Positions 5,952-48,235 of a DNA stretch of 64,000 nt are shown here, piece by piece. The DNA lies in the NCBI GenBank assembly GCA_905216155.1, contig CAJMSU010000001.1:8412-72411 (forward strand), in the 5' to 3' direction. Numbering within the stretch: position 1 is the first letter of the stretch; every line of letters starts with the position of its first letter. The notes below the pieces were generated by a model, which was not told where the DNA came from, made no database searches, and was given only the letters and a program-made list of their open reading frames with translations. The DNA is from an uncultured bacterium. GTDB taxonomy: Bacteria > Bacillota_I > Bacilli_A > RF39 > UBA660. The translations under genes and the position numbers were made by a program.

Positions 5952-5975
5952 AAAAAAGACTAGCTGTAGTCTTTT
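5951..5975 (-). terminator. Intrinsic terminator of the 79-aa gene
   Basis: 9-bp stem aaaagacta (5954..5962) / tagtctttt (5967..5975) with a 4-nt loop. A U-run follows in the minus-strand transcript. Confidence 0.75.
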
Positions 5976-6199
5976 AATTTAATAAGTTCTTCTTTATTTA
6001 ATCCAGTTGATTTTTTTATTATTTCTATATCTATATTGTTTTCTAGTAAGTGTTTTGCGATTTCTAGAGATTTTTCCTTTTCTCCTGCTTCTTTTCCTAT
6101 TTCATAATATTCTTCTTGAAGAGCCATTTCTTTATCATAACTTTCTCCAAAATATTCATCATCCATTACTTTTTCTACTTCTTCCATATACTCTTCCAT
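5960..6199 (-). CDS. Small acidic protein (79 aa) equivalent to the C-terminal tail of Rpn/YhgA-like (transposase_31) nucleases; possible orphan RpnS-like protein
   Basis: Strong RBS (aggaggtataaatataATG). The C-terminus KSLEIAKHLLENNIDIEIIKKSTGLNKEELIKLK resembles the conserved tail of Firmicute Rpn-family proteins. Degenerate paralogous copies lie at 46990..47228 and 57815..57840. Confidence 0.55.
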   Translation of the reverse strand: MEEYMEEVEKVMDDEYFGESYDKEMALQEEYYEIGKEAGEKEKSLEIAKHLLENNIDIEIIKKSTGLNKEELIKLKDYS

Positions 6200-6209
6200 T
6201 ATATTTATA

Positions 6210-6288
6210 CCTCCTATTACAAAAAAATATATTGAATAAATCTATCCAATATATTATTATCTTTTTGTTTTTGTTTTCCTTTTAATTT
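6210..6288 (-). repeat. Conserved ~80-nt hairpin-terminator/RBS block, copy 1 of 3
   Basis: Near-identical to 47529..47608 and similar to 57851..57931. The stem is 6226..6236 / 6245..6255, followed by a U7 run on the minus strand. Confidence 0.85.
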
Positions 6289-7221
6289 TTATTGTTTTTT
6301 GAATAACTTTTTGATATTTTCCTTTGGCATTAACATTTTTGATGTTTTATCTACTTTGAATGTAAACTTTTTATTATTAGATTTATATTCTTCACCATCT
6401 ATACACCAAGAAGTCTTTGGTTTGTTTAGAAATTCTATTTCTAGATTATTAGTTTGATAATATGTAATACCTGGTACTTTCTTTAAATCTCTTGTTGTTG
6501 CTTGAACCATCATTTTTAGTATTTCTCTTTTTGTTCTTGGGTTTGCTAAGGCAACCTCAAACATATTATCATCTAACTTTATATCATAATATATATCATC
6601 AACACCTGCTACTCGTGATGAATTTGTTATAAATATAAATGAAAACTTTCCTTCATAATTTTTACCATCTATTTTATATTTTATATTATACATATTGGTT
6701 TTATTTTTTAATTGTTTTAATCCATACATTATATATGCTAGTTTTCCATATTTTTTCTTTAGGGATCTTGGCGTATTATATGCCATATCTATAAAATCTC
6801 CAAGACATGCAACATAAACAAATGGGGTATTATTTATATAACAAACATCTATATTTTTTTCTACTCCGGTTAGTAATAACTCTAGATTTTTTTGGTAATT
6901 TTTGGTATATCCAAACATATTGGCTACGTCATTAGTTGTTCCCATAGGAAGATTGGCAAGAACTAAATGATTTTCTCTTAACATATTTCCTGTTACAACT
7001 TCATTTAAAGTACCATCTCCACCGGCACTTATTACTAAGTCTACATCATCATCTAATTCTTTAACAATTTTAGTTGCATCTTTTTTTTGCTTTGTATATT
7101 TAATCTCTGCATCATATCCATGTTTTCTTAAAATGTCATAGAAATCTTTTTTATTATCTAATTTTTTTACTTTTCCACTTTCGGGGTTCATTATGATTAT
7201 ACATTTTTTCAAAATAATCAA
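6289..7221 (-). CDS. dagK: Diacylglycerol kinase family lipid kinase (DagK/YegS-like)
   Basis: 310 aa with the GGDGTLNEV catalytic-domain motif and the NPESGK N-terminal motif. Confidence 0.85.
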   Translation of the reverse strand: MIILKKCIIIMNPESGKVKKLDNKKDFYDILRKHGYDAEIKYTKQKKDATKIVKELDDDVDLVISAGGDGTLNEVVTGNMLRENHLVLANLPMGTTNDVANMFGYTKNYQKNLELLLTGVEKNIDVCYINNTPFVYVACLGDFIDMAYNTPRSLKKKYGKLAYIMYGLKQLKNKTNMYNIKYKIDGKNYEGKFSFIFITNSSRVAGVDDIYYDIKLDDNMFEVALANPRTKREILKMMVQATTRDLKKVPGITYYQTNNLEIEFLNKPKTSWCIDGEEYKSNNKKFTFKVDKTSKMLMPKENIKKLFKKQ

Positions 7222-44257: not shown

Positions 44258-46279
44258 ATGTCAAAAGATACCGATGAGTTAGAAAAGAAGCCAAAAAGAA
44301 GGTTTGTAATATTGTTTTTTTTAATTATTGCACTTATTACTAGTCTTTTTGCAATATATGAACTTTACTTACTTAGTTCAATAGAAACTTTAATAAGATA
44401 TATTATTATGGGATTTTTAGTCTTTATTGATTTGATTTTTATATTTAAGACTAAAAGATTTTTTAAACCTTTTAAAAAGAAAAAGAAGAAAAAGAAAAAA
44501 TCCAAGGGGATTATGTTAATTATTTTTATGATTTTATATTCGCTTGTATGTGGTTTTGTTGGTGGTGCTATATTCTATGTTTATGGTGAGGTTAGTAATA
44601 TAAATAAGGTGTATGTTACTTATTCATCTAGTTTAGTTACTATGAGTAAGAATAGTGCTGATAAAGTATCTGATATAAAAGATTATAAAATTGGTATATT
44701 AAAAGATAAAACTTCTCCTGAGGGGTATATTATTCCTCAAGAAATAATAAAAGAAAATAATTTGAATGATAATAATGAAATTAAAAAATATGATGACTAC
44801 TCTACTATGTTAGTTGATCTATATTCTGGTGAGATTGATGCAATGTTTACATCTAGTAGTTATGTATCTATGTTTTCATCAATTACTGGATATGAAAATA
44901 TTCAAACTGATACTAAAGTTATTATTACTAAAGATAAGAAAATGAAGAAGTCTGATGCTTCTATTAATGAGACAGCTTCTAGTGGTAAATCTATAAAGGA
45001 ACCTTTTACTATATTACTTATGGGAATTGATTCTACTGATGAGGTTTTAAGTAAAAATGCTATTGCTAATGGTGATACTTTAATTCTTGTAACATTTAAT
45101 CCTAAAACTTTAAATGCTACTATGATTTCTATTCCAAGAGATAGTTATGTTCCAATTGCTTGTTGGCCTAGTAAAGATGAAAATAAAATTACTCATGCTG
45201 CTGGTTATGGTACTGATTGTATGATGAATACAATAGAGGAATACTTTGATGTTAATATTGATTATTATGCAAAAATAAACTTTAAGGGACTTGTTAAATT
45301 GGTTGATGCTGTTGGTGGTGTTGATGTTGAGGTTCCTAGAAAATTATGTACTGATGACTCTTCTCGTGGTGGACAGGTTTGTATCCAAGAAGGAAAACAA
45401 CATTTAAATGGTGAGGAAGCTTTAGTTTTTGCAAGAAACAGAAAGCAACTTGCTGAGGGAGATTTTGGTAGAGCTAAACATCAACAAGAAATTGTTGTTC
45501 AACTTGTTAATAAGATGAAAGACATTACTGAGGTTTCTAAATTCATGGAAATTTTAAATACTGTATCTAATAGTATAGATACTAATTTAACTACTAAACA
45601 AATATTATCATTTTATAATATAGCTAAAGATATTGTTAAAAAGAGCTTAGCTGCTGATGATGCAGATTTAGTAAATATACAACAATTATATTTAGCTGGT
45701 AATGGACAAATGATTTATGATGAAAGAATGAGAATGGTTTTATGGGATTATGTTCCTAATAAAAATAGTAAAAAAGATATTATTAGAGCGATGAAAGAAA
45801 ACTTAGAACTTGTTGATCATAAACCTATAAAAAAATTTAGTTTTTCAGCAAACGATCCTTATGAAAAGGAAATTATTGGTGAGGGGCCATACAAAATTAG
45901 TTATACTTATAAACTATTACCAAGTTTTATTGGTGACAGTGAAAGTGCTGCTAGAAGTTATGCTAATGCTAATGGTATTAGAGTAACATTTAGAGGATCT
46001 GGTGGTCATGTTGTTAGTCAAAGTGTTCCTGCTAATAAGAGAATTGATAAAATTACTGGTAGTGTTGTATTAACTCTTTCTGGTGGTACTTCAAATAATA
46101 CTAATACTACAACACAAAAAAGCGATAAAAATGAAAATACATCTAAGGATACATCTAAAGATACATCTAAGGACACATCTAAGGATACATCTAAAGATAC
46201 ATTTGAAAAACCATCTACTCCTAGTAAAGATGATGCTACTAAACCAGGAGATGAGGGTGATACAACTGGTTCTAATTGA
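44258..46279 (+). CDS. LytR-CpsA-Psr (LCP) family glycopolymer ligase with extra domains
   Basis: LCP core FTILLMGIDS...GDTLILVTFNP...ISIPRDSYV...INFKGLVKLVDAVGGVDV. One N-terminal TM helix plus a poly-Lys tract. A PASTA-like module LPSFIGDSESAARSYANANGIRV. A TSKD x5 tail. Start at ATG 44258 (RBS ggagga). Confidence 0.85.
   Translation: MSKDTDELEKKPKRRFVILFFLIIALITSLFAIYELYLLSSIETLIRYIIMGFLVFIDLIFIFKTKRFFKPFKKKKKKKKKSKGIMLIIFMILYSLVCGFVGGAIFYVYGEVSNINKVYVTYSSSLVTMSKNSADKVSDIKDYKIGILKDKTSPEGYIIPQEIIKENNLNDNNEIKKYDDYSTMLVDLYSGEIDAMFTSSSYVSMFSSITGYENIQTDTKVIITKDKKMKKSDASINETASSGKSIKEPFTILLMGIDSTDEVLSKNAIANGDTLILVTFNPKTLNATMISIPRDSYVPIACWPSKDENKITHAAGYGTDCMMNTIEEYFDVNIDYYAKINFKGLVKLVDAVGGVDVEVPRKLCTDDSSRGGQVCIQEGKQHLNGEEALVFARNRKQLAEGDFGRAKHQQEIVVQLVNKMKDITEVSKFMEILNTVSNSIDTNLTTKQILSFYNIAKDIVKKSLAADDADLVNIQQLYLAGNGQMIYDERMRMVLWDYVPNKNSKKDIIRAMKENLELVDHKPIKKFSFSANDPYEKEIIGEGPYKISYTYKLLPSFIGDSESAARSYANANGIRVTFRGSGGHVVSQSVPANKRIDKITGSVVLTLSGGTSNNTNTTTQKSDKNENTSKDTSKDTSKDTSKDTSKDTFEKPSTPSKDDATKPGDEGDTTGSN
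46139..46202 (+). repeat. 12-bp tandem repeat x5.3 encoding (TSKD)n
   Basis: acatctaaggat / acatctaaagat / acatctaaggac units are read directly from the sequence. Confidence 0.9.
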
Positions 46280-46314: not shown

Positions 46315-46377
46315 ATACATTTGTTGGCTATCTTTACAAAATTTTGTTTTTAAGATAATATATAATTGGTGATTTTG

Positions 46378-46941
46378 ATGAAGAAAAAAGATGATATACG
46401 TGTTTTAAAAACAAAAAAGAAATTATATGATGGATTATTATTTTTAATGAAGGATAATGCTTTTGAGGATATTAAAGTTTCTGATATTTGCATTGCTTCT
46501 AAAATTAATAGATCTACGTTTTATGATCATTTTAGTGATAAGTATGAGCTTTTATCTTCGCTTATAAAAGATTTGGAAATTGAACTTGCATCTTCTCTTG
46601 ATGATAATAATTGTTATAAATCTGAGAAAGAATATTATATGAAAATGATTGAGTTACTATTTGATCATATTAGTAATAATATTACTACTTATACAGCAAT
46701 TGTTAAGAATAACAATAATACTATCGCTAGTGACATATTTAGAAATACGTTAATTGCTGATGTAAAAAAACATATTAATAAAAATAGTAATACAAATTAT
46801 ATTCCTATAGATATTGTAACTATTTTTTATGTTAGTGCTGTTGTTAATGTATGTATTTACTATATTAGTTCTAATAATAATTATTCAAAAGATGATATCT
46901 TGAGTTATATAAATAAACTTTTACCTGATTCTTTTTATTAA
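46378..46941 (+). CDS. TetR/AcrR family transcriptional regulator
   Basis: N-terminal HTH FEDIKVSDICIASKINRSTFYDHFSDKYELL. Start set at ATG 46378 (MKKKDD). Confidence 0.8.
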   Translation: MKKKDDIRVLKTKKKLYDGLLFLMKDNAFEDIKVSDICIASKINRSTFYDHFSDKYELLSSLIKDLEIELASSLDDNNCYKSEKEYYMKMIELLFDHISNNITTYTAIVKNNNNTIASDIFRNTLIADVKKHINKNSNTNYIPIDIVTIFYVSAVVNVCIYYISSNNNYSKDDILSYINKLLPDSFY

Positions 46942-46946
46942 AAATA

Positions 46947-46980
46947 AAGAAGTTGAATTTACTACAACTTCTTATTTTTT
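46947..46980 (+). terminator. Intrinsic terminator after the TetR gene
   Basis: 9-bp stem aagaagttg (46947..46955) / caacttctt (46965..46973) with a 9-nt loop, then aTTTTTT. Confidence 0.75.
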
Positions 46981-46989
46981 TATTTTATT

Positions 46990-47524
46990 TAACTCTTCTT
47001 TATTTAATCCAGTTGATTTTCTATTATTTCTATATCAATATTATTTTCTAGTAAGTGCTTCGCAATTTTAATTTTTTCTTTTTTTATTCCCTATTTTACA
47101 CCTTTCTTAATTTCTGCTTCTTTTCCTATTTCATAATATTCTTCTTGAAGAGCCATTTCTTTATCATAACTTTCTCCAAAATATTCATCATCCATTACTT
47201 TTTCTACTTCTTCCATATACTCTTCCATTATATTTATACCTCCTCCTAACTCTTTAGAAGTTACTATATCTTTTTCTTTATTTAGACTTTCTTTGGTTAA
47301 TTTTATTTTACTTCAAAGTTCTTCATATGTTATATCTAGACAATATGATAAGAACTTGGCACCATACTTTATTCTATTATCATTATAAAACATTGTTTTG
47401 AACATAGTATCTGACATGATAGATGGTTTTTCTCCTTCTTTTATTTTTGTTATTTCTCACTGTCTTTTAATGATACTTCTAAATCATATAATAACTTATA
47501 ATTATCATTTTTAATATTTAACAT
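46990..47524 (-). pseudogene. Decayed Rpn-family locus: 24-codon leader ORF, Rpn N-terminal stub with an in-frame TGA, and a disrupted copy of the 79-aa tail gene
   Basis: Leader ORF at 47450..47524. Stub MSDTMFKTMFYNDNRIKYGAKFLSYCLDITYEEL* at 47313..47417. Tail-gene copy with ATG at 47228 and a premature TAG at 47091, followed by a frameshifted C-terminus. DNA is near-identical to 6080..6215. Confidence 0.6.
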
Positions 47525-47528
47525 ATAA

Positions 47529-47608
47529 CCTCCTATTACAAAAAAATATATTGAATAAATCTATCCAATATATTATTATCTTTTTGTTTAGGTTTTCCTT
47601 TTAATTTT
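47529..47608 (-). repeat. Conserved hairpin-terminator/RBS block, copy 2 of 3
   Basis: Near-identical to 6210..6288. The stem is 47545..47555 / 47564..47574. Confidence 0.85.
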
Positions 47609-48235
47609 TTATTTTAATTCAACAAGTGATAGTTTTTTTCCCTTATGCATAAATATTAAAGTTGCTTCTTTTTGATAATCAGAGAAATCATCACTTGTAT
47701 ATGTCCAAGATACTTTTACTTCGTATGCTTCTTTATCTGTTGTGTCACTATATGTAAATGTTGTATTATCAATACTATCTATTGTGATTTTATCTACTGT
47801 AGGCAACTTTTGTTTTCTTTGATTATAAATATTGCTTTCTACATATTTATAGTATGTATCTTCTGCATTTTTTAAGAAATTATCCAATACAGTAGAATAC
47901 ACAAAATCAGTTCCACCTACATCTGTTTTTGCAGTTTTATCGTTTAATGAATAAAAATCGTAAATAAACATTTCTGATATTTTTTTTGCATACTCTTTTT
48001 CATCTACTGGATCTTTTTTTAGTATTTTTTCTAATTCATAAAACATCTTTTTATATTCAGCACTTTTGGTATCTTTTAATTTATATCCATATCCTTTTAT
48101 TTCATGAAGTACTTTTACTTCTTTTACATTATCTTTATTAAAGAATACTTTATAACTAATAAATCCTACTATTGATAGAACTATTAAAACTAATAAAGTT
48201 ATTAATATTCTTTTTGGCTTTTTCTTTAAACGCAT
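47609..48235 (-). CDS. Hypothetical N-terminally anchored extracytoplasmic protein (208 aa), co-transcribed with ltaS
   Basis: Single TM helix (ILITLLVLIVLSIVGFISY). It starts 3 nt after the ltaS stop. Confidence 0.6.
   Translation of the reverse strand: MRLKKKPKRILITLLVLIVLSIVGFISYKVFFNKDNVKEVKVLHEIKGYGYKLKDTKSAEYKKMFYELEKILKKDPVDEKEYAKKISEMFIYDFYSLNDKTAKTDVGGTDFVYSTVLDNFLKNAEDTYYKYVESNIYNQRKQKLPTVDKITIDSIDNTTFTYSDTTDKEAYEVKVSWTYTSDDFSDYQKEATLIFMHKGKKLSLVELK

What the first reader, a model, noticed from the sequence alone, without database searches (positions are those of the whole stretch)
46990..47524. Decaying Rpn-family (YhgA/transposase_31-like) gene whose nuclease core is gone, with N-terminal stub and C-terminal tail still in frame
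- **Layout.** Downstream of hairpin copy 2 the minus strand encodes a 24-codon ORF followed by MSDTMFKTMFYNDNRIKYGAKFLSYCLDITYEEL(TGA).
- **N-terminal stub.** The D-x-x-F-K...F-L-x-x-x-L pattern matches the N-terminus of Rpn/PD-(D/E)XK transposase_31 proteins.
- **In-frame link.** Reading through the TGA gives SKIKLTKESLNKEKDIVTSKELGGGINI-MEEYMEE.... The stub is therefore in frame with the ATG of the tail gene, and the tail gene's RBS (GGAGGAGG) is itself coding (GGG).
- **Known precedent.** This layout is expected for a gene-within-a-gene. E. coli Rpn nucleases have been reported to contain an internal start producing a small C-terminal protein (RpnS) that antagonises the full-length toxin.
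- **State here.** The nuclease core is deleted and the tail copy is broken (TAG at 47091 plus a frameshift).
Basis: partly seen in the sequence, partly recalled or inferred. Interest (0 to 1): 0.65.

Follow-up and report, generated by a model that had tools for sequence, protein, structure and literature searches.

The report
Dead Rpn nuclease gene, core deleted
The region is the wreck of a known toxin-antitoxin (Rpn nuclease) defence gene that lost its nuclease core and took four further disabling mutations. A second copy in the same window has been trimmed to just the small antitoxin-like tail gene.

Summary

- **What it is.** Window 47524..46972 (minus strand) is a pseudogene of an Rpn-family recombination-promoting nuclease. 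It belongs to the TIGR01784 / PF12784 PDDEXK_2 branch, not PF04754.
- **Relatives at the same locus.** Contigs with 99% identical flanks carry the whole 311-codon gene, itself already pseudogenised.
- **Core deletion.** The window allele has lost 381 bp (127 codons) between in-phase 9-bp repeats (AGAAAAAGA). The lost segment holds the invariant D94 and E107-x-N109.
- **Other lesions.**
  - a -1 frameshift after codon 22, which makes the "24-codon ORF" the gene's true N-terminus;
  - TGA at codon 71;
  - TAG after tail codon 45;
  - a -1 frameshift in an A-run.
- **Internal start.** The internal Met and its GGAGG-type ribosome site are kept in 116 of 120 intact homologues. The tail is homologous to E. 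coli RpnA-S (PDB 7TH0). The RpnL/RpnS gene-within-a-gene layout therefore applies, but here the TAG removes the RpnS domain.
- **New in this work.** A paralogous locus (6199..5960) holds an intact 79-aa tail-only gene. It arose by a 672-bp deletion between the gene's own ribosome site and the internal one. Other strains carry the intact 305-aa gene there.

This is an ordinary pseudogene of a known family, with a tidy allelic series.

The parts
47525..47610 (-). 5' leader of the ancestral rpn gene. It holds a promoter-like TTAAAA-18-GATAAT (47604..47575) and an AT-rich hairpin AATATATTG-N12-CAATATATT (47574..47545) followed by T7. The ribosome site AGGAGG(T) is at 47534..47528.
   Evidence: A 52-nt core is 52/52 identical at 47529..47580 and 6210..6261. 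Hairpin folding z-score is -4.1. The promoter-like match is no more frequent than in shuffles, so it is only a consensus match. No Rfam family matched.
47450..47524 (-). The '24-codon ORF'. Codons 1-22 are the true N-terminus of the ancestral gene (MLNIKNDNYKLLYDLEVSLKDS). A 1-nt deletion between 47458 and 47457 (AGTG[T]AGAAATA) shifts the frame into a TAA.
   Evidence: Intact homologues P0158, P0278, P0162 and P0159 start MLNIKND.../MLKLRDYNYK... and read through in frame. L014 and L016 keep the T, while L001, L006 and L008 share the deletion.
47269..47456 (-). Remnant of the N-terminal segment, ancestral codons 24-85. It includes the stub ORF 47417..47313, a TGA nonsense at 47315..47313 (TTA Leu71 in relatives) and a Y61C missense at 47342..47340.
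   Evidence: L71 is conserved in 115/120 homologues and Y61 in 119/120. P0008 has the same first 50 residues apart from Y61C and matches PF12784 positions 3-104.
47269..47277 (-). Deletion junction. This single copy of AGAAAAAGA is what remains of three in-phase direct repeats. 381 bp (127 codons, P0158 residues 86-212) are missing.
   Evidence: In L001 the repeats lie at 6141, 6492 and 6522, spaced 351 and 30 bp apart. L014 keeps two copies and the window keeps one. The deleted segment contains the invariant D94, E107, N109, Q145 and others.
47229..47268 (-). Link segment (DIVTSKELGGGINI) carrying the internal ribosome-binding site AGGAGGAGG at 47247..47239, which is also the codons L-G-G-G.
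   Evidence: In 120 full-length homologues Gly is present at -6 in 118 and at -5 in 89. GGAGG or a purine-rich site is present in L017, L012, L025, L026 and L027.
47091..47228 (-). Truncated tail (RpnS-like) ORF of 45 codons ending in a TAG nonsense at 47093..47091 (CAG Gln in the tail-only alleles L020/L021). It also carries a G39E missense at 47114..47112.
   Evidence: The TAG is shared by every contig with both locus-2 flanks (L001, L008, L014, L016). The first 115 nt are identical to the locus-1 tail gene.
46972..47090 (-). Disabled remainder of the tail. It holds the four-residue repeat region and the helix-turn-helix homologous to E. coli RpnA-S. A -1 frameshift sits in the A-run 47020..47017, and the original stop is at 46974..46972.
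   Evidence: Relatives have A5 and read ...IIEKSTGLNKEELNKIKK*. The match to PDB 7TH0 covers tail residues ~36-77.
46940..46973 (-). Terminator-like hairpin AAGAAGTTG-N9-CAACTTCTT followed by TATTTTT. It lies between the pseudogene and the convergent TetR-family gene (46366..46941 +).
   Evidence: Fold -10.8 kcal/mol, z-score -3.4. It was not called by the G+C-dependent terminator scan.
5960..6199 (-). Paralogous locus 1: an intact 79-aa tail-only (rpnS-like) gene, MEEYMEEVEKV...ELIKLKDYS*.
   Evidence: tblastn. TIGR01784 positions 196-272, E=3e-6. AF2 model with three helices. The top Foldseek hit is 7TH0 RpnA-S, prob 1.0, TM 0.87, rmsd 0.7 A over 42 columns.
6200..6300 (-). Leader of the locus-1 tail-only gene, the same sequence as 47525..47610. 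The gene's own AGGAGGT is fused directly to the spacer of the internal start by a 672-bp deletion. At 6300..6289 lies a single AAAAAACAATAA, the junction of a separate 1026-bp deletion that removed a glycosyltransferase gene.
   Evidence: Intact 305-aa gene at this locus in L017-L019. L009 carries the two 12-nt repeats.

Best explanation
Window 47524..46972 (minus strand) is a non-functional, multiply hit pseudogene of an rpnL/rpnS-type gene. Such a gene encodes an Rpn-family PD-(D/E)XK nuclease (the toxin). Its C-terminal tail is also translated separately from a conserved internal start, giving a small helix-turn-helix antitoxin.

**Shown from sequence.**
- The ancestral gene had 311 codons and started at the ATG of the '24-codon ORF'.
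- The nuclease core (127 codons, including the invariant Asp and Glu-x-Asn) was removed by a deletion between in-phase 9-bp direct repeats. This is why stub and tail stay in frame.
- Two frameshifts, two nonsense codons and two missense changes at near-invariant positions add to the damage.
- The TAG cuts the tail ORF before its RpnA-S-homologous domain.

**Inferred.**
- No product of this locus retains nuclease or antitoxin function.
- The deletion arose by replication slippage or microhomology-mediated recombination.
- The locus is decaying under relaxed selection, as part of a strain-to-strain series in which both rpn paralogues of this species lose the toxin part.
For: **Family.**
- The tail hits TIGR01784.
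- The intact near-identical genes are P0158 (305 aa) and P0278 (311 aa). P0158 passes TIGR01784 (55.9 vs cut-off 52.1) and PF12784 (37.3 vs 27.4).

**Alleles at the same locus.** Flanks are 98.5-99.8% identical.

| Contigs | State |
|---|---|
| L001-L008 | full length, with the N-terminal frameshift and three in-frame stops (L008 also has a 4-bp insertion) |
| L014-L016 | 351-bp deletion |
| window | 381-bp deletion |

All deletions use the same AGAAAAAGA repeats.

**Lost residues.** The deleted segment holds the invariant D94, E107 and N109.

**Internal start.** Met in 116/120 homologues, Gly-Gly upstream, and GGAGG at DNA level.

**Tail.**
- Four-residue repeat steps give tails of 76/80/84/88/92 aa, as described for RpnS in PMC10400941.
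- It is homologous to RpnA-S (PDB 7TH0) by profile, E=2.7e-5, and by fold, TM 0.87.
- The TAG lies after tail residue 45, upstream of most of that domain.

**Genetic code.** TGA ends 4 of 44 long ORFs in the window, so it is a stop codon here.
Against: - No expression data exist. A 45-aa acidic peptide could still be made from the internal start, and a 34-aa peptide from the stub ATG.
- The A-run frameshift is unique to the window and sits in a homopolymer, so it could be a sequencing error.
- Every contig carrying both locus-2 flanks is already a pseudogene. The undamaged locus-2-type 3' end is seen only in the hybrid contig L028. The time and order of the lesions are therefore not resolved.
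Confidence: 0.9

Rival explanations
1. The remnant still works as a small-protein gene. The 45-aa N-terminal part of the tail, or a read-through fusion of stub and tail, would act as a truncated RpnS-like antitoxin or decoy against RpnL nucleases encoded elsewhere.
For: - The internal ribosome site and ATG are intact.
- The first 115 nt of the tail ORF are identical to the intact locus-1 tail gene.
- The leader with its promoter-like site is intact.
- The core deletions are in frame in both deletion alleles.
Against: - The TAG removes the region homologous to RpnA-S, which in E. coli forms the dimer and binds RpnL.
- The in-frame state follows from the repeats sharing one codon phase.
- Lesions differ between strains and accumulate, including missense changes at near-invariant positions.
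- A read-through fusion would need two stop codons and a frameshift to be bypassed.
Confidence: 0.05
2. The gene is intact in the cell, and the apparent lesions are recoding events (TGA read as Trp in genetic code 4, or programmed frameshifting) or sequencing and assembly errors.
For: - Public gene calls P0001 and P0006 translate the TGA as W, meaning they were called in code 4.
- One frameshift lies in a homopolymer.
- The genome has 23.9% G+C.
Against: - Long ORFs in the window are uninterrupted in table 11, and 4 of 44 end in TGA.
- The TAG, the N-terminal frameshift and the TGA each recur in independent assemblies.
- A 381-bp loss of the catalytic core cannot be repaired by recoding, and 9-bp repeats are too short to cause an assembly collapse.
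- Intact relatives need no recoding.
Confidence: 0.03
3. The similarity to Rpn proteins is a low-complexity artefact of an AT-rich, Lys/Glu-rich intergenic region, and no gene was ever there.
For: - The stub alone and the 24-aa ORF give no HMM hits.
- The local Pfam copy gives no hit to the tail.
Against: - The same locus in related strains holds the complete 311-codon reading frame.
- 555 homologues were found at E<=1e-5. The 120 best listed are almost all 295-331 aa.
- The tail matches TIGR01784 and PDB 7TH0.
Confidence: 0.01

Closest known systems
RpnL/RpnS gene-within-a-gene toxin-antitoxin systems (E. coli RpnA-E, plasmid RpnP2, C. difficile Rpn; Zhong et al. 2023, PNAS, PMC10400941)
   Same: - An N-terminal PD-(D/E)XK nuclease domain plus a variable C-terminal tail.
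- A conserved in-frame internal Met with a ribosome site inside the coding sequence.
- A tail homologous in sequence and fold to RpnA-S (7TH0).
- Tail length varying in four-residue steps.
- Copies without inverted repeats or target-site duplications.
   Different: - The copy in the finding is dead: core deleted, tail truncated.
- The family branch is PF12784/TIGR01784, not the E. coli PF04754 type.
- The internal start lies about 35 residues before the repeat region, against 8-20 reported for RpnS. The small protein would therefore carry an extra acidic N-terminal segment.
- It has a 36-residue N-terminal extension before the PDDEXK_2 domain.
- No functional data exist for this clade.
Separately encoded RpnS homologues (rpnESs/ypaA, rpnCSs; DUF4351 PF14261 genes) described in PMC10400941
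   Same: The 79-aa gene at 6199..5960 is a stand-alone gene derived from the tail of an rpn gene. Zhong et al. report such separate rpnS genes on chromosomes and plasmids.
   Different: - Here the small gene does not sit downstream of a full-length rpn gene. It replaces it.
- A 672-bp deletion between two AGGAGGT ribosome sites put the tail ORF under the full-length gene's own leader.
- There is no PF14261 hit. Near-identical proteins carry PF27070 HTH_Rpn_C.
- One strain group (L023/L024) has a TGA inside it.
Toxin-antitoxin decay with orphan antitoxins (general pattern in type II TA loci; from established knowledge, not tested here)
   Same: The toxic part is lost first, or preferentially, while the antitoxin-coding part persists.
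   Different: Toxin and antitoxin share one reading frame here. Loss of the toxin alone therefore needs an internal deletion (locus 2) or a 5' deletion (locus 1), not loss of a neighbouring gene.

Membership tests
Rpn family recombination-promoting nuclease (NCBIfam TIGR01784 / COG5464) | Whole-protein HMM score above the curated cut-off (52.1 bits) | tested here: not met
   The window read-through scores 33.1 bits and the tail 34.2 bits, covering only model positions 171-273. The intact homologue P0158 (93% identical to the reconstructed locus-2 gene) scores 55.9 bits over positions 2-271. The window sequence is therefore a fragment of a member, not a member protein.
Rpn family recombination-promoting nuclease (NCBIfam TIGR01784 / COG5464) | Descent from a family member, shown by near-identity and synteny with a full-length gene | tested here: met
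   The same locus (LtaS, 208-aa gene, rpn, TetR, LCP) has 98.5-99.8% identical flanks and holds the full 311-codon frame in L001-L008.
PD-(D/E)XK nuclease domain PDDEXK_2 (Pfam PF12784) | Domain present with the conserved acidic core residues (here D94, E107-x-N109 in P0158 numbering) | tested here: not met
   Codons 86-212 are deleted in the window. The stub alone gives no hit. P0008 and P0158 hit PF12784 at E=1.8e-7 and 3.2e-9.
   No PF04754 hit at E<=1 for intact P0158, nor at E<=10 for the window pieces. Only weak C-terminal matches to the E. coli RpnA equivalog NF007361 were found, E=0.0046 to 0.11.
RpnL/RpnS gene-within-a-gene toxin-antitoxin | Conserved in-frame internal start codon preceded by a ribosome-binding site inside the coding sequence | tested here: met
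   Met in 116/120 full-length homologues and Val in the other 4; Gly at -6 in 118/120. GGAGG or a purine-rich site 8-13 nt upstream in L017, L012, L025, L026 and L027. AGGAGGAGG-N10-ATG is present in the window at 47247..47226.
RpnL/RpnS gene-within-a-gene toxin-antitoxin | Tail domain homologous to RpnS (three-helix bundle with a long first helix) | tested here: met
   For the family and the locus-1 copy: profile hit to 7TH0, E=2.7e-5. The AF2 model has helices 18-53, 58-65 and 69-77 with mean pLDDT 67. Foldseek top hit is 7TH0, prob 1.0, TM 0.87. In the finding's own copy this domain is cut off by the TAG and a frameshift.
RpnL/RpnS gene-within-a-gene toxin-antitoxin | Variation of the tail by four-residue repeats among close relatives | tested here: met
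   Tail lengths of 76/80/84/88/92 aa among homologues. Tails of 79/83/87 aa occur among alleles of locus 1, and there is an 8-residue difference between the two loci in the window.
RpnL/RpnS gene-within-a-gene toxin-antitoxin | The long protein is a toxic DNA endonuclease and the short protein binds and blocks it | not testable with these tools
   This needs expression, SOS-induction and pull-down assays as in PMC10400941.
Separately encoded RpnS (DUF4351, Pfam PF14261), considered for the locus-1 gene | HMM match to PF14261 | tested here: not met
   No hit at E<=1. Precomputed annotation of near-identical proteins P0003 and P0005-P0007 gives PF27070 HTH_Rpn_C instead. That model is not in the local Pfam copy.

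The most novel reading that the evidence does not exclude
In this gut Firmicute both rpn loci are shedding the nuclease while the antitoxin-like tail survives as a gene of its own.

- At locus 1, one microhomology deletion between the gene's own ribosome site and the internal ribosome site excised the toxin part exactly. It left rpnS under the rpnL leader.
- If that orphan RpnS is expressed and selected, two roles are possible: immunity against incoming or related RpnL nucleases, or an HTH regulator acting on the conserved leader hairpin.
- Site-to-site deletion would then be a general route by which stand-alone rpnS genes are born.
- The dead copy in the finding would be the alternative outcome of the same process.
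Probability: 0.2. Interest if true: 0.55.

Novelty: new member of a known kind. Interest (0 to 1): 0.3.

Why it matters
**The finding itself.** It is a pseudogene of a described family, so it changes nothing fundamental. It should be annotated as one Rpn-family pseudogene, not as several small ORFs.

**The comparison around it.** Within one species' strains there is a stepwise record of how a single-frame toxin-antitoxin gene comes apart:
- nonsense mutations;
- two different core deletions at the same short repeats;
- at the sister locus, a clean excision of the toxin part that leaves an rpnS-only gene under the parental leader.

**Open points it makes testable.** Zhong et al. noted that separate rpnS genes exist and speculated about how they arise. 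These loci give concrete alleles to test whether an orphan RpnS is functional. They also show that the internal ribosome site serves as a recombination microhomology as well as a translation signal.

Tried and rejected
- **Pfam on the stub, tail, read-through and 24-aa ORF.** No relevant hit. The relevant model PF27070 is absent from the local copy.
- **NCBIfam on the stub and the 24-aa ORF alone.** No hit.
- **PADLOC on P0158 and the tail-only protein.** No hit, so there is no support from that defence-system library.
- **Rfam on 46800..47800.** Nothing. The leader hairpin is not a known RNA family.
- **Terminator scan.** Found nothing, because the hairpins are A+T-rich. Promoter-like matches are no more frequent than in shuffles.
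- **Genome-contig scan.** It returned only two loci. The organism could not be named, and the closest labelled relative (60% identity) is an 'uncultured Tenericutes' MAG.
- **The listing of cluster members.** It gave no names.
- **L022 (P0007).** This looked like a tail gene with a different N-terminus, but its upstream DNA is unrelated and coverage is 1.9x. I treated it as a probable assembly chimera.
- **The 'W' in P0001 and P0006.** These are TGA codons translated in code 4 by the source's gene caller, not reversions.
- **Purifying selection on the tail-only gene.** Differences among alleles are few and mostly non-synonymous (E/K, M/I), and one allele group carries a TGA. No case for selection could be made.

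Full report
**1. Observation**

- A 24-codon ORF lies at 47524..47450.
- The stub MSDTMFKTMFYNDNRIKYGAKFLSYCLDITYEEL lies at 47417..47316 and is ended by TGA at 47315..47313.
- A link follows in the same frame: SKIKLTKESLNKEKDIVTSKELGGGINI.
- Its codons L-G-G-G spell AGGAGGAGG at 47247..47239, which sits 10 nt before the ATG at 47228.
- The tail ORF has 45 codons and ends at TAG 47093..47091.
- The same frame then continues GIKKEKIKIAKHLLENNIDIEIIE until a 1-nt loss in an A-run (47020..47017).

No other copy of the stub exists in the window, but a second copy of the tail does.

**2. What it is**

*Family assignment.* NCBIfam TIGR01784 ([quoted passage not shown]) matches the repaired tail at E=2.3e-8 (model positions 195-273 of 273). 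It matches the read-through at positions 171-273. The stub alone is too short to hit anything.

*Close relatives.* A protein search found only close relatives.
- P0008 is a 105-aa protein whose first 50 residues match the stub and link apart from Y61C. It continues into ...SDYVAIIDDTMINIEVNNN... and matches PF12784 PDDEXK_2.
- P0001 and P0002 are core-less forms like the window, but 10 residues longer.

*The same locus in related strains.* Contigs carrying these proteins hold the same locus: LtaS-type sulfatase, a 208-aa gene, [rpn], a TetR-family gene, an LCP-family gene. Their flanks are 98.5-99.8% identical to the window. In L001-L008 the complete gene is present. In L001 and L006 it reads in one frame interrupted by three stop codons; L008 has an extra 4-bp insertion in the core.

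*Intact genes.* A search with the reconstructed gene found 555 homologues at E<=1e-5. The 120 best listed are almost all 295-331 aa. Intact near-identical genes include P0158 (305 aa, 93%) and P0278 (311 aa). P0158 passes the curated cut-offs of TIGR01784 (55.9 vs 52.1 bits) and PF12784 (37.3 vs 27.4). It gives no PF04754 hit.

**3. Anatomy of the decay**

This section rests on alignment A2.

(a) *N-terminal frameshift.* Intact homologues start MLNIKND(N/D)YKLLYDLEVSLKDSVEITKIKEGEKPSIMSDTMFK. A 60%-identical intact gene in L012 starts at the homologous position, probably from a GTG. The "24-codon ORF" is therefore the true N-terminus. The window has lost one T (AGTG[T]AGAAATA, between 47458 and 47457). 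L001, L006 and L008 share this lesion; L014 and L016 do not.

(b) *TGA nonsense.* Leu71 (TTA) has become TGA. L016 shares this change.

(c) *Core deletion.* The full-length allele has three copies of AGAAAAAGA in the same codon phase (K-E-K-E, T-E-K-E, I-E-K-D), spaced 351 and 30 bp apart.
- L014-L016 lack the 351 bp between copies 1 and 2.
- The window lacks all 381 bp (127 codons, P0158 residues 86-212) between copies 1 and 3.
- A single repeat remains at 47277..47269.
- The lost segment contains the residues invariant in all 120 homologues that make up the PD-(D/E)XK-type core: D94 and E107-x-N109. It also contains the rest of the domain.

Because the repeats share one phase, any deletion between them is in frame. 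The in-frame state of stub and tail needs no selective explanation.

(d) *TAG nonsense.* TAG follows tail codon 45. Every contig carrying both locus-2 flanks shares it. Locus-1 alleles L020 and L021 have CAG there.

(e) *A-run frameshift.* A5 has become A4. This is unique to the window and could conceivably be a homopolymer sequencing error.

(f) *Missense changes.* Y61C and G39E (tail numbering) hit positions conserved in 119/120 and 115/120 homologues.

*Genetic code.* TGA is a genuine stop codon in this genome: 4 of 44 long ORFs end in it, and none is broken by it. The "W" in database proteins P0001 and P0006 is a TGA translated in genetic code 4 by the source's gene caller.

**4. The gene-within-a-gene reading**

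*The precedent.* Zhong et al. 2023 (PMC10400941) reported the following.
- E. coli and C. difficile rpn genes have an internal translation start that yields RpnS.
- RpnS binds and blocks the toxic full-length nuclease RpnL.
- RpnS varies by four-residue repeats.
- RpnA-S is a dimeric three-helix bundle.
- Separate rpnS genes also exist.

*What was found here.*
- In 120 full-length homologues (49-93% identity) the Met at the tail start is present in 116 and Val in the other 4. Gly lies at -6 in 118 and at -5 in 89.
- At DNA level, L017, L012 and L025 have TTAGGAGGAG 10-13 nt upstream. L026 and L027 have weaker purine-rich sites.
- Tail lengths among close homologues fall at 76, 80, 84, 88 and 92 residues through gain or loss of G-x-x-x/E-G-x-x units.
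- A profile of tails matches PDB 7TH0 (RpnA-S) at E=2.7e-5.
- An AlphaFold2 model of the locus-1 tail has a long helix followed by two short ones. Its mean pLDDT is only a moderate 67.
- The best PDB match of that model is 7TH0: probability 1.0, TM 0.87 on the target, rmsd 0.7 A over 42 columns.

*One difference.* The internal start lies about 35 residues before the repeat region, against the 8-20 reported. The predicted small protein therefore carries an extra acidic N-terminal segment.

*The finding's own copy.* The TAG leaves only that acidic segment and the first part of the long helix. The RpnA-S-homologous part is lost.

**5. The second locus**

*The tail-only gene.* At 6199..5960 (minus strand) the window holds an intact 79-aa tail-only gene. 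Its first 115 nt are identical to the finding's tail. Its 5' flank is the same leader as upstream of the finding:
- a 52-nt core is identical at 6210..6261 and 47529..47580;
- it includes an inverted repeat AATATATTG-N12-CAATATATT followed by T7 (fold z-score about -4).

*How it arose.* In strains L017-L019 this locus, upstream of the spoIIAA-like STAS gene, sigF and the spoVA genes, carries the intact 305-aa gene P0158. The tail-only allele equals that gene minus 672 bp lying between two copies of AGGAGGT. One copy is the gene's own ribosome site and the other is the internal one.

*How widespread it is.* The identical junction occurs in the window, L009-L011, L020-L021 and L023-L024. It is therefore one old event that has since diversified into 79-, 83- and 87-residue repeat variants.

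*Is it under selection?* L023 and L024 carry a TGA inside the gene, and most substitutions among alleles are non-synonymous. I cannot show that the tail-only gene is under purifying selection.

**6. Mechanism and rivals**

*Best explanation (confidence 0.9).* The finding is a dead rpnL/rpnS gene.
- Shown: homology, the lesions, the repeats at the junction and the allelic series.
- Inferred: absence of function, and slippage or microhomology-mediated recombination as the deletion mechanism.

*Rivals.*

| Rival | Confidence | Main objection |
|---|---|---|
| Residual small-protein function | about 0.05 | the RpnS domain is lost and lesions are accumulating |
| Recoding or sequencing artefact | about 0.03 | the stops recur in independent assemblies, and a core deletion cannot be recoded |
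| Compositional artefact | about 0.01 | full-length alleles exist |

**7. Novelty and verdict**

This is a new, decayed member of a known family, with a known regulatory layout. It is of low interest in itself.

The more interesting by-product is the natural series showing two ways in which a single-frame toxin-antitoxin gene loses its toxin. One of them creates a stand-alone rpnS gene under the parental leader. Separate rpnS genes were already reported, so this refines what is known. It is not a new kind of system.

Noticed in passing
window 5960..6300 (minus strand): An intact 79-aa tail-only (rpnS-like) gene sits under the same leader as the finding. It was made by a 672-bp deletion between the rpn gene's own AGGAGGT and the internal AGGAGGT. 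Other strains (L017-L019) carry the intact 305-aa gene at this site.
   Followed up: yes
window 6210..6261 and 47529..47580 (minus strand): A 52-nt leader segment is identical at both rpn loci. It contains an A+T-only inverted repeat (9-13 bp stem) flanked by an A-tract and a T7 run, between a promoter-like site and the ribosome site. It could be an operator for the HTH tail protein or an attenuator. No Rfam match was found.
   Followed up: partly
window 6289..6300; compare L009:3881-4918: The window lacks the 311-aa glycosyltransferase gene that lies between the DAGK/YegS-like gene and the rpn leader in L009 and L017. Both genes end in AAAAAACAATAA, and 1026 bp between these 12-nt repeats are missing. 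This is a third short-repeat deletion in these two loci.
   Followed up: partly
L028:1532-2467 (contig of sample ERZ15610113, 2.75x coverage): An intact 311-aa rpn gene has its 5' flank and first ~260 codons of locus-1 type (glycosyltransferase upstream). Its repeat region, 3' end and downstream TetR gene are of locus-2 type. This is either recombination between the two direct-repeat loci (a duplication or circle junction) or an assembly chimera across the shared sequence. It shows that a locus-2-type tail without the TAG exists.
   Followed up: partly
window 44243..46279 (+), LCP-family ORF: The predicted protein has a run of nine or more Lys codons (a long A-tract) near its N-terminus. Near its C-terminus it has a tandem (SKDT)n/(DTSK)n repeat, about 46100..46200. 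Both are slippage-prone sequences. The opposite strand carries a 100-aa ORF that is probably spurious.
   Followed up: no
L017:3959-4807 (minus strand): A second, more distant Rpn-family paralogue (282 aa, weak HTH_Rpn_C hit) lies about 2 kb upstream of the intact locus-1 gene in that strain. No counterpart exists in the window (tblastn).
   Followed up: partly
database proteins P0001, P0006 (loci L016, L023, L024): Public gene calls for these low-G+C contigs were made in genetic code 4, turning in-frame TGA stops into Trp. This hides the pseudogene state of the loci.
   Followed up: yes
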